Source: a virus
Lineage: Duplodnaviria > Heunggongvirae > Uroviricota > Caudoviricetes
Strand: one strand, 5' to 3'
IMG/VR virus record: IMGVR_UViG_2617270948_000004
DNA: 17,167 nucleotides
The notes beneath the pieces are model-generated. The model saw only the letters and a list, made by a program, of their open reading frames with translations. It was not told where the DNA came from and did no database searches. Below, piece after piece: positions 2,682 to 4,289 of the stretch (position 1 is the stretch's first letter; the number at the start of each line of letters is the position of its first letter). A program made the translations under genes and the position numbers.

Positions 2682-2875
2682 AATATATCTACAACGGCCC
2701 GGCAAGCGGCGTCACCCTTGCCGACGGACAAGAAATCTTATTGTGGCCGAACAGTGAAATTGATCTGCCAGAAGACAACGAGTGGGTCATGACCATGATT
2801 GCCCGCAATCATCTGACTCCCGTCATCACTCAGGAAGAACAAAATACCGGAGAGGAAATTGTACATGGCAGCTAA
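2678..2875 (+). CDS. Small phage protein of unknown function (Mu gp38-like position)
   Basis: 65-aa ORF with GAGGA RBS, coupled to the flanking genes and overlapping the sheath start. Confidence 0.4.
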   Translation: MKYIYNGPASGVTLADGQEILLWPNSEIDLPEDNEWVMTMIARNHLTPVITQEEQNTGEEIVHGS

Positions 2876-4289
2876 TTACCTGCACGGTGTCGAAACCATT
2901 GAAATTGAAACCGGTCCGCGCCCGGTTAAAGCGGTAAAATCCGCTGTAATCGCTTTAATCGGTAGTGCACCATGCGGTCCGGTAAACAGACCAACATTGT
3001 GCCTTTCTGAAAGCGATGCCGCGCAGTTTGGCTCGACTCAGGCTAACTTTACGATCCCGCAGGCGCTGAAGGCGATTTACGACCACGGCGCTGGTACGGT
3101 GGTGGTGATTAACGTACTGGACCCGGTAAAACATGGCTCCAGCATCAGCAATGAGAGTATCACTTTTGATTCCAACAACCAGGCGAAACTGGCTCATAGT
3201 GCGGTGCGTAATGTTGTCCTGAAACCCTCTTCAACATCAGCCACCACGTATAGCAGCACAGCGTTTCATGTTGATGAACAAACAGGAATAATCACTCGTG
3301 CAGAGACTGAGATCCCTGCCGGAGCGAAAGTTTGCGCCTATTACTCATGAGCCGATCCAACAAAAGTTACCGCAGCCGATATTATTGGCGCCGTTAATAC
3401 CGCAGGCGATCGCACGGGGATGAAACTGCTACAGGACACCTATAATCTGTATGGTTTCTACGCCAAAATCCTGCTTGCTCCGGTTTTCTGTACGCAAAAA
3501 TCGGTCACCACAGAGCTGATTGCTCAGGCGGAAAAACTCGGTGCTATCGCCTACATTGACGCCCCAATCGGTACTACATTCCAGCAGGTGCTGGCTGGTC
3601 GCGGCTCGAAAGGCGCAATCAACTTCAACACCAGTTCTGACCGTGCGCGTTTATGCTATCCGCACGTCAAAGTTTATGACGGCTCAACCAACCAGGAAGT
3701 TCTCGAACCGCTCTCTTCACGCGCTGCCGGACTGCGTGCCAAAGTAGACCTGGAGAAAGGTTTCTGGTGGAGCAACTCAAACCAAGAAATTCAGGGCATT
3801 ATCGGTATCGAACGTTCACTTTCCGCAATGGTTGATGACCCGCAAAGTGAAGTGAATCAGCTCAACGAAAACGGCATTACCACAGTTTTCAATAGTTACG
3901 GCTCTGGTCTGCGTTTATGGGGCAACCGCACTGCGGCATGGCCTACCGTGACCCATATGCGTAACTTTGAAAACGTTCGCCGCACGGGCGATGTGATTAA
4001 CGAGTCGATCCGCTATTTCAGCCAGCAGTATATCGATATGCCGATTAATCAGGCGCTAATTGATGCCCTGACCGAGTCGGTAAATACCTGGGGCCGTAAG
4101 CTGATTGCCGACGGCGCACTGCTTGGCTTTGAGTGCTGGTACGATCCGGCGCGAAATTCACCGACCGAACTCAGCGCCGGGCATTTATTGCTGAGCTATA
4201 AATTCACCCCGCCACCGCCGCTGGAACGTCTGACGTTTGAAACTGAAATTACTTCTGAATATTTAGTCTCTCTGGAGAGCAATAGCTAA
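2865..4289 (+). pseudogene. Contractile tail sheath protein (P2 FI-like / Mu L-like) interrupted by a single in-frame TGA at 3348..3350
   Basis: Two track ORFs (2859..3350 and 3420..4289) are in the same reading frame. The frame is open from 3351 to 4289 and only the TGA at 3348..3350 separates the halves. The C-terminus (GLRLWGNRT...LLLSYKFTPPPPLERLTFETEITSEYL) matches the conserved sheath C-terminal domain of P2 FI as recalled; the N-terminus MAANYLHGVETIEI matches the sheath N-terminus. RBS AGAGGAAA precedes the ATG at 2865. Confidence 0.8.

What the first reader, a model, noticed from the sequence alone, without database searches (positions are those of the whole stretch)
2865..4289. Tail sheath gene interrupted by a single in-frame TGA (3348..3350)
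Both sheath halves are in one frame, and the only interruption is TGA after codon Ser-163 (..KVCAYYS*ADPTKV..). The interruption falls in a poorly conserved linker just before the conserved region aligning to P2 FI. The sheath is essential for contraction. So the element is either inactivated by a very recent nonsense mutation (the rest of the module is intact, arguing against long decay), depends on UGA readthrough or suppression, or the stop is a sequencing error.
Basis: seen in the sequence. Interest (0 to 1): 0.55.

Follow-up and report, generated by a model that had tools for sequence, protein, structure and literature searches.

The report
Nonsense-mutated sheath gene of a tailocin-like cluster
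The stop codon is real: one G-to-A change turned a tryptophan codon into TGA in one lineage of Escherichia ruysiae, most likely disabling a headless phage-tail ("tailocin"-like) gene cluster, which is an ordinary gene knock-out and not a recoding signal.

Summary
ATG 2865 to TAA 4289 is one frame, with a single internal TGA at 3348-3350. This is codon 162, after Ser-161, not Ser-163. It is not a sequencing error: all 10 independent assemblies and metagenome contigs I inspected carry the same TGA, and two haplotypes share it. The window is 100% identical to 'E. coli' 1-176-05_S3_C2, which is an Escherichia ruysiae ST5792 strain.

The closest intact relatives are 99.4% identical and have TGG (Trp). 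More distant Escherichia also have TGG. None of 73 more distant homologues that cover the site has a stop there; most have an aromatic residue. The change is therefore W162*, by G->A at 3350.

The gene encodes the sheath of a headless BcepMu-type tail and lysis cluster. The cluster lies next to lysC in Escherichia and Salmonella (STM4198-4219) and has been under long-term purifying selection (dN/dS about 0.1). The truncated product lacks about three quarters of the conserved sheath core.

One TGA sub-lineage has also acquired frameshifts in the tape-measure and gpD genes, which indicates decay and not programmed readthrough. No RNA structure follows the UGA. Background UGA readthrough would insert the ancestral Trp, so the allele may be slightly leaky.

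This is an ordinary lineage-specific pseudogene, of low interest.

The parts
2865..4289 (+). Tail sheath gene (orthologue of BcepMu gp39 and Salmonella STM4213), 474 codons when intact, here a pseudogene
3348..3350 (+). In-frame TGA at codon 162. Ancestral TGG (Trp); the derived base is the A at 3350
   Evidence: L019 and L021 (99.4% identical), L017 and L018 (97.7%) have TGG. E. coli A37 has TGG.
2865..3350 (+). Upstream fragment, 161 aa: N-terminal arm plus the variable inserted domain. Deposited as EYD83426.1
3420..4289 (+). Downstream ORF from the first in-frame ATG, 289 aa (PF04984 + PF17482). Deposited as EYD82885.1. No evidence that it is translated
1..348 (-). Mor-family transcription activator (BcepMu gp01-like), divergent from the lysis and tail operon
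886..2108 (+). Lysis genes: holin (886-1173), SLT lytic transglycosylase (1173-1781), 104-aa membrane protein (1794-2108, BcepMu gp25-like)
2226..2875 (+). Gp37-family protein and a 65-aa protein (BcepMu gp37 and gp38)
4289..15057 (+). Rest of the tail module, all intact in this window: tube, chaperone, tape measure, gpU-like, X, D, V, W, J, I, fibre, fibre-assembly protein

Best explanation
The sheath gene carries a genuine nonsense mutation: Trp-162 TGG became TGA by a G->A transition at 3350. The mutation is inherited by a clade of Escherichia ruysiae that includes strain 1-176-05_S3_C2 (ST5792). The gene belongs to a headless BcepMu-type cluster next to lysC. That cluster has a Mor activator, a holin, an SLT lysin and a complete contractile tail, but no head, terminase or transposition genes. 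It has the anatomy of an R-type tailocin, and across Escherichia it has been kept by purifying selection. Translation stops after 161 residues. That product has only the N-terminal arm and a variable surface domain. It lacks the part that aligns to residues 89-381 of the R2-pyocin sheath, the conserved core of the protein. By inference, no contractile sheath can polymerise and the particle is non-functional or made in trace amounts. With selection removed, the other tail genes drift. One TGA sub-lineage already has frameshifts in the tape-measure and gpD genes. Shown here: the mutation, its polarity, its presence in independent datasets, and the later lesions. Inferred: loss of function, that the cluster is a tailocin, and a small background of full-length wild-type protein from Trp-tRNA misreading of UGA.
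For: All 10 independent contigs inspected carry the TGA, in two haplotypes. The window is 100% identical over 14,289 nt to GCA_000601195.1. That assembly is strain 1-176-05_S3_C2, which PMC10434276 places in E. ruysiae ST5792. The nearest intact alleles have TGG. In 79 homologues from other genera, 73 cover position 162 and none has a stop; it is Y/F/W/H in 68 (Y 44, F 18, H 5, W 1), and Y160, A163, D164 and P165 are conserved. The closest solved structure is the pyocin sheath 3J9Q: residues 4-84 align to 2-85 and 164-469 to 89-381. dN/dS for the whole cluster is 0.097 against E. coli A37 and 0.113 against L012; for the sheath it is 0.07-0.09. Haplotype B adds 1-bp deletions near 6114 (tape measure, stop at aa 293) and near 9513 (gpD, stop at aa 259), seen in 4-5 independent datasets. 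There is no Rfam family. The RNA at 3340-3420 folds no better than shuffles (z +0.59). The cluster is collinear with BcepMu gp01, gp21-22, gp25 and gp37-51, without gp02-20 or gp26-36.
Against: In the window's own haplotype every other gene of the cluster is still intact, so decay after the TGA is seen only in the sister haplotype. The excess of non-synonymous changes on the TGA branch (17:15, against 8:17 on the L019 branch) is not significant (Fisher p = 0.18). UGA is the leakiest stop codon in E. coli: about 2-4% readthrough in a K-12 reporter, through Trp-tRNA (PMC10570021). Readthrough here would give exactly the ancestral protein, so complete loss of function is not proven. No protein or particle data exist. 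That the intact cluster makes a bactericidal particle is itself untested.
Confidence: 0.85

Rival explanations
1. Leaky hypomorph. The UGA is read through at a low level by Trp-tRNA(CCA), which restores the ancestral Trp-162. The lineage would then still assemble a few functional particles, and the allele would be tolerated or even favoured as a way to lower the output of a costly, lysis-dependent weapon.
For: Near-cognate decoding of UGA by Trp-tRNA competes with RF2 and reaches about 2% (37 C) to 4% (25 C) in an E. coli K-12 reporter, heterogeneously among cells (PMC10570021). The ancestral residue is Trp. All other genes in the window's haplotype are intact.
Against: The UGA is followed by G. 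From my own knowledge, this is not one of the weak contexts. Also from my own knowledge, K-12 has an unusually weak RF2, so wild strains probably read through less. No stimulatory structure follows the stop. A sheath needs on the order of a hundred or more subunits per particle (general knowledge of R-type pyocins), so a few per cent of subunit supply should cut the yield severely. The sister haplotype lost the tape-measure and gpD genes, as expected if the cluster no longer matters.
Confidence: 0.1
2. Sequencing or assembly error in the source genome: the true codon is TGG.
For: A single-base difference from the nearest intact allele. The source is a draft assembly.
Against: The same TGA is present in all 10 contigs inspected, from different projects and platforms (NCBI isolate, ENA metagenomes, Logan assemblies of at least five runs). 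They include a second haplotype that differs at 11 other sites. The two fragments are on record on 14 and 17 contigs.
Confidence: 0.01
3. Programmed recoding (selenocysteine or regulated readthrough), or a functional two-piece sheath in which the 161-aa and 289-aa products co-assemble, by analogy with the two-protein TssB/TssC sheath of type VI secretion.
For: Both ORFs are called and deposited as separate proteins. Two-protein sheaths exist in T6SS (general knowledge).
Against: The TGA is confined to one clade. Relatives that are 99.4% identical have TGG with the same downstream sequence. There is no SECIS-like or other stable hairpin and no Rfam match. The first in-frame start after the stop is ATG 3420. 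A product starting there would drop 24 residues, including the conserved A-D-P-T-K-V-T-A-A-D-I-I-G...G-x-R-T-G stretch. The only purine run before that ATG (GGGG) abuts the start codon, which is poor Shine-Dalgarno spacing. The sister haplotype shows further decay.
Confidence: 0.02

Closest known systems
Burkholderia phage BcepMu (Bcepmuvirus), tail sheath gp39 and tail module gp37-gp51
   Same: The sheath is 71% identical over 471 aa. Seventeen window genes map collinearly to gp01, gp21, gp22, gp25 and gp37-gp51 at 26-77% aa identity.
   Different: There is no counterpart of gp02-20 (transposase, immunity), gp23/24 (Rz/Rz1) or gp26-36 (terminase, portal, protease, major head protein). The cluster sits at a fixed chromosomal site next to lysC. 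The sheath is interrupted by TGA.
Salmonella enterica STM4198-STM4219 phage-tail cluster (sheath STM4213)
   Same: Same site next to lysC, same gene order from Mor to fibre, and a sheath 82% identical.
   Different: The Salmonella copy has an intact sheath and a gtrABC-like operon inserted between V and W. No paper in the held library treats it as a tailocin.
R2-type pyocin of Pseudomonas aeruginosa (sheath PA0622, PDB 3J9Q)
   Same: It is the closest solved structure (E 1.5e-43) and shares the conserved sheath core. The overall logic is the same: a headless contractile tail with its own lysis genes.
   Different: The ancestry is different: P2-like for R2 pyocin (PMC9205054), BcepMu-like here. 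The sheath here has an extra stretch of about 75 residues (about 86-160). Its regulator is a Mor-family activator. Killing activity has not been shown.
Phage P2 sheath FI
   Same: Same Pfam families, PF04984 and PF17482. The BcepMu record itself annotates gp39 as 'P2 major tail sheath protein FI'-like.
   Different: It is only a distant relative. Peduovirus records fall in the band below 60% identity, and I did not align P2 FI directly.

Membership tests
Contractile-tail sheath protein (Pfam Phage_sheath_1 / Phage_sheath_1C) | Subtilisin-like sheath domain and C-terminal sheath domain above Pfam's gathering scores | tested here: met
   PF04984 108.7 bits (cut-off 31.4) and PF17482 66.2 bits (cut-off 26.9), both in the part downstream of the TGA.
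Contractile-tail sheath protein (Pfam Phage_sheath_1 / Phage_sheath_1C) | One uninterrupted reading frame that joins the N-terminal arm to the core and the C-terminal arm | tested here: not met
   TGA at codon 162. Intact in L017, L018, L019, L021 and L001.
Bcepmuvirus-type tail module | Collinear homologues of gp37-gp51 | tested here: met
   tblastn hits in order along BcepMu 21.8-32.7 kb, 26-77% identity.
Complete BcepMu-like prophage | Transposase and transposition genes, terminase, portal and major head protein | tested here: not met
   No hits to gp02-20 or gp26-36. lysC lies directly upstream of Mor (L004). In E. coli A37 the cluster ends before yjbD and rluF.
R-type tailocin (phage tail-like bacteriocin) | Full set of contractile-tail structural genes without capsid or DNA-packaging genes | tested here: met
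   In this window the sheath is the one broken member.
R-type tailocin (phage tail-like bacteriocin) | Own lysis cassette and regulator for release | tested here: met
   Holin PF13272, SLT PF01464 and Mor PF08765. No Rz/Rz1 equivalent was found.
R-type tailocin (phage tail-like bacteriocin) | Production of particles that kill related strains | not testable with these tools
   No experimental report was found in the held library.
Programmed UGA recoding (selenocysteine or stimulated readthrough) | UGA conserved among orthologues | tested here: not met
   TGG in all intact Escherichia orthologues examined. No stop in the 73 homologues from other genera that cover the site.
Programmed UGA recoding (selenocysteine or stimulated readthrough) | Stable RNA element immediately 3' of the UGA | tested here: not met
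   MFE -16.8 kcal/mol against a shuffle mean of -18.45 (z +0.59); no Rfam family.

The most novel reading that the evidence does not exclude
The TGA allele could be a selected hypomorph and not dead. Trp-tRNA misreading of UGA varies from cell to cell and responds to cAMP in E. coli (PMC10570021). It would restore the exact ancestral sheath in a small, metabolically defined fraction of cells. A costly lysis-dependent tail weapon would then be produced rarely. More broadly, the headless BcepMu-type cluster at lysC, shared by Escherichia and Salmonella under dN/dS of about 0.1, would be an undescribed enterobacterial tailocin that different lineages repeatedly switch off: sheath TGA here, sheath frameshift in L014, IS in gpI in L015, Mor frameshift in L019, gpU-like frameshift in L020.
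Probability: 0.07. Interest if true: 0.55.

Novelty: new member of a known kind. Interest (0 to 1): 0.15.

Why it matters
For the finding itself, very little. It is a lineage marker: a W162* sheath pseudogene in one E. ruysiae clade. Annotators should join the two deposited 'sheath family proteins' into one pseudogene. The context is of more use. The cluster is a conserved, headless BcepMu-derived tail and lysis module at the same site in Escherichia and Salmonella. It evolves under purifying selection, yet different lineages have knocked it out in different genes. If it proves to be a working tailocin, natural knock-outs such as this one are ready-made controls for testing what the particle does in gut competition.

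Tried and rejected
- An exact 48-mer spanning the TGA found nothing in genome contigs, which holds one genome per species. The protein-pattern scan of the same collection returned 79 loci from other genera but no Escherichia. Species identity therefore had to come from the cluster look-up and a paper.
- Rfam, RNA folding downstream of the UGA and the promoter/terminator scan of 1-6000 (fewer sites than in shuffles) gave nothing.
- The embedded ORF 1888-2049 inside the 104-aa gene was checked as a possible Rz1-type lipoprotein. It has no lipobox-like start and was dropped.
- The ST131 'tailocin' paper (PMC9205054) describes a complete P2-like prophage, not this cluster.
- Literature searches for a described tailocin at lysC, or for the STM42xx genes, found no functional study.
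- The branch-wise test for relaxed selection was not significant (p = 0.18).
- I did not run structure prediction or the large protein searches. The alignment to the solved pyocin sheath already locates the truncation, and the answer would not change.

Full report
**Observation.** The stretch 2865-4289 is one reading frame of 475 codons. It starts with ATG and ends with TAA, and it has a single internal stop, TGA at 3348-3350. Counted from the ATG at 2865, the stop is codon 162 and follows Ser-161. 'Ser-163' holds only when counting from the TTG at 2859 that the ORF lister uses. The part downstream of the stop matches the two Pfam sheath domains well above their cut-offs (PF04984 and PF17482). 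The upstream part has only a sub-threshold match to a T4 gp18 domain.

**Is the stop real?** Yes.
- An exact look-up of the 289-aa downstream ORF found it in 29 blocks of the public assembly collection. The 10 contigs I retrieved come from an NCBI isolate genome, four ENA metagenome assemblies and five Logan run assemblies.
- All ten carry TGA at the same place. Five are identical to the window across the gene, and five differ by one synonymous site.
- The window is 100% identical over 14,289 nt to JHDF01000027.1 of GCA_000601195.1.
- The two fragments are deposited as EYD83426.1 (161 aa) and EYD82885.1 (289 aa) of 'Escherichia coli 1-176-05_S3_C2', and are on record on 17 and 14 contigs.
- A published core-genome study places that strain in Escherichia ruysiae, ST5792 (PMC10434276). 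This agrees with its pgi-lysC region being only about 91.5% identical to E. coli.
- A sequencing error is therefore excluded.

**What was the codon before?**
- The nearest intact alleles (L019, CP089930.1, and L021) differ from the window at 8 of 1425 positions. One of these is 3350, where they have G: TGG, Trp.
- L017 and L018 (97.7% identical) also have TGG. So does E. coli A37 (89%).
- With L017, L018 and L001 as outgroups, the A at 3350 is derived on the branch leading to the TGA clade.
- The event is a single G->A transition, W162*.

**Is the site a poorly conserved linker?** No.
- In an alignment of 79 homologues from other genera (33-85% identity), 73 cover position 162. It is Tyr in 44, Phe in 18, His in 5 and Trp in 1. 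It is flanked by Y160, A163, D164 and P165, each kept in most or nearly all sequences. None has a stop there.
- Mean column conservation is 0.57 for residues 86-159 and 0.77 for residues 160-190.
- The closest solved structure is the R2-pyocin sheath PA0622 (3J9Q). Residues 4-84 align to pyocin 2-85, and residues 164-469 to pyocin 89-381.
- Residues of about 86-160 are therefore an extra, variable insertion. Trp-162 sits where the chain returns to the conserved core.
- The 161-residue product keeps the N-terminal arm and the insertion. It lacks about three quarters of the pyocin-equivalent core, including the C-terminal end.

**What element is this?**
- Gene calls and Pfam hits around the gene give this order: a divergent Mor-family activator, then holin, SLT lytic transglycosylase, a 104-aa membrane protein, a Gp37-family protein, a 65-aa protein, sheath, tube, chaperone, tape measure, gpU-like, X, D, V, W, J, I, fibre and fibre-assembly protein.
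- The sheath is 71% identical to gp39 of Burkholderia phage BcepMu.
- Seventeen window genes map collinearly to BcepMu gp01, gp21, gp22, gp25 and gp37-gp51. Nothing matches gp02-20 (transposition, immunity), gp23/24 (Rz/Rz1) or gp26-36 (terminase, portal, protease, head).
- lysC lies directly upstream of Mor. In E. coli A37 the cluster lies between lysC and yjbD/rluF.
- The same cluster occupies the same site in Salmonella enterica (LT2 tags STM4198-STM4219; sheath STM4213, 82% identical). There a gtrABC-like operon is inserted between V and W.
- Across Escherichia the cluster has evolved under purifying selection. dN/dS is 0.097 against E. coli A37 and 0.113 against L012 over 17 genes, and 0.07-0.09 for the sheath.
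- The anatomy is that of an R-type tailocin, but I found no experimental report on it in the held library. 'Tailocin' is therefore an inference.

**Decay or recoding?** Four lines of evidence point to decay.
1. The TGA is confined to one clade, and relatives with the same downstream sequence have TGG.
2. The 81 nt around and after the UGA fold no better than shuffled sequence (z = +0.59). Rfam finds nothing in the window.
3. The first in-frame start after the stop is ATG 3420. A product from there would drop 24 residues, including a conserved motif, and the only purine run before the ATG abuts it.
4. The TGA clade has two haplotypes.
   - Haplotype A (the window, L003, L004, L005, L007, L010) has all other genes intact.
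   - Haplotype B (L002, L006, L008, L009, L011) adds two 1-bp deletions. One is near 6114 and truncates the tape measure at residue 293. The other is near 9513 and truncates gpD at residue 259.
   - Neither deletion lies in a long homopolymer, and each recurs in several independent datasets.
   - Two frameshifts among about eight derived changes is what relaxed selection after the sheath knock-out predicts, given that the cluster has otherwise evolved at dN/dS of about 0.1.

**Age of the mutation.** 'Very recent' is too strong. The housekeeping flanks of haplotypes A and B differ at 13 of 6581 sites. That is far more than the 22-447 genome-wide SNVs reported within ST5792. The TGA therefore predates divergence above the ST level, or it moved by recombination. 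The intact state of haplotype A is not evidence of selection: its branch carries only about five substitutions in 14 kb. The excess of non-synonymous changes on the TGA branch (17:15, against 8:17 on the L019 branch) is only suggestive (Fisher p = 0.18).

**Residual function.** UGA is read through by Trp-tRNA in competition with RF2. Readthrough was about 2% at 37 C and 4% at 25 C in a K-12 reporter (PMC10570021). Here readthrough would restore the ancestral Trp, so any readthrough product is wild-type sheath. From my own knowledge, K-12 has an unusually weak RF2, and G after UGA is not a weak context. I therefore expect less readthrough in this strain. Because a sheath needs many subunits per particle, I infer a severe but possibly not absolute loss. 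This is the main rival reading, at about 10%.

**Wider pattern.** Among the 11 non-TGA Escherichia loci retrieved, four carry a different disabling lesion:
- a sheath frameshift in L014;
- an IS element in gpI in L015;
- a Mor frameshift in L019;
- a gpU-like frameshift in L020.

The sample is not random, but it suggests the cluster is often knocked out in single lineages despite long-term conservation. The sheath TGA is one instance of this.

**Verdict.** Sequencing error and programmed recoding are rejected. This is an ordinary lineage-specific pseudogene in a conserved, uncharacterised tailocin-like cluster. Interest is low.

Noticed in passing
window 1-15057; L103 (Salmonella Infantis SARB27) 11056-29374; L001 6108-19425: The same headless BcepMu-type tail and lysis cluster sits next to lysC in E. 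ruysiae, in some E. coli, in other Escherichia and in Salmonella (STM4198-4219). dN/dS is about 0.1 across Escherichia. I found no paper in the held library that treats it as a tailocin.
   Followed up: partly
L014 8591-10001; L015 about 18141-19415; L019 5714-6061; L020 13458-14410: Other Escherichia lineages carry independent disabling lesions in the same cluster: a sheath frameshift (L014), an IS/DDE transposase inserted in gpI (L015), a Mor frameshift (L019) and a gpU-like frameshift (L020).
   Followed up: partly
window about 6114 and about 9513 (as seen in L002, L006, L008, L009, L011): A sister haplotype of the TGA clade has 1-bp deletions that truncate the tape measure at residue 293 and gpD at residue 259. 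L006 has further gaps and runs of N, which are probably assembly problems.
   Followed up: yes
window 5141-5269: A 42-codon ORF overlaps the end of the tail-chaperone gene (4864-5181) in the +1 frame, and some assemblies call it as a gene. This is where BcepMu has its chaperone frameshift extension (gp42/gp43). I did not look for a slippery site.
   Followed up: no
window 13473-13732 and 13641-13900: The fibre gene (12908-14404) contains an internal direct repeat, 86% identical and offset by 168 nt (56 codons). The fibre and everything downstream vary between lineages.
   Followed up: no
L103 22118-24953: In Salmonella a gtrA / glycosyltransferase / gtrC-like O-antigen modification operon (STM4204-4206) is inserted inside the tail cluster, between baseplate genes V and W.
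   Followed up: no
window 15054-17167; L012 4619-5548; L101 3399-5323: The cargo at the cluster edges varies. The window has a 151-aa ORF, a 96-aa ORF on the minus strand and a GT4 glycosyltransferase (which also matches PF20706 'GT4-conflict'). Six of the ten loci retrieved through the tube protein have a zeta-toxin gene between lysC and Mor. E. coli A37 has a slipin gene and a nucleotidyltransferase gene.
   Followed up: no
window 349-885 and 1794-2108: The Mor-holin intergenic region is long (537 bp). It holds an uncalled 89-codon ORF (388-657) with no Pfam match. The cluster has no counterpart of the BcepMu Rz/Rz1 spanins; the 104-aa protein after the lysin resembles BcepMu gp25 instead.
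   Followed up: partly
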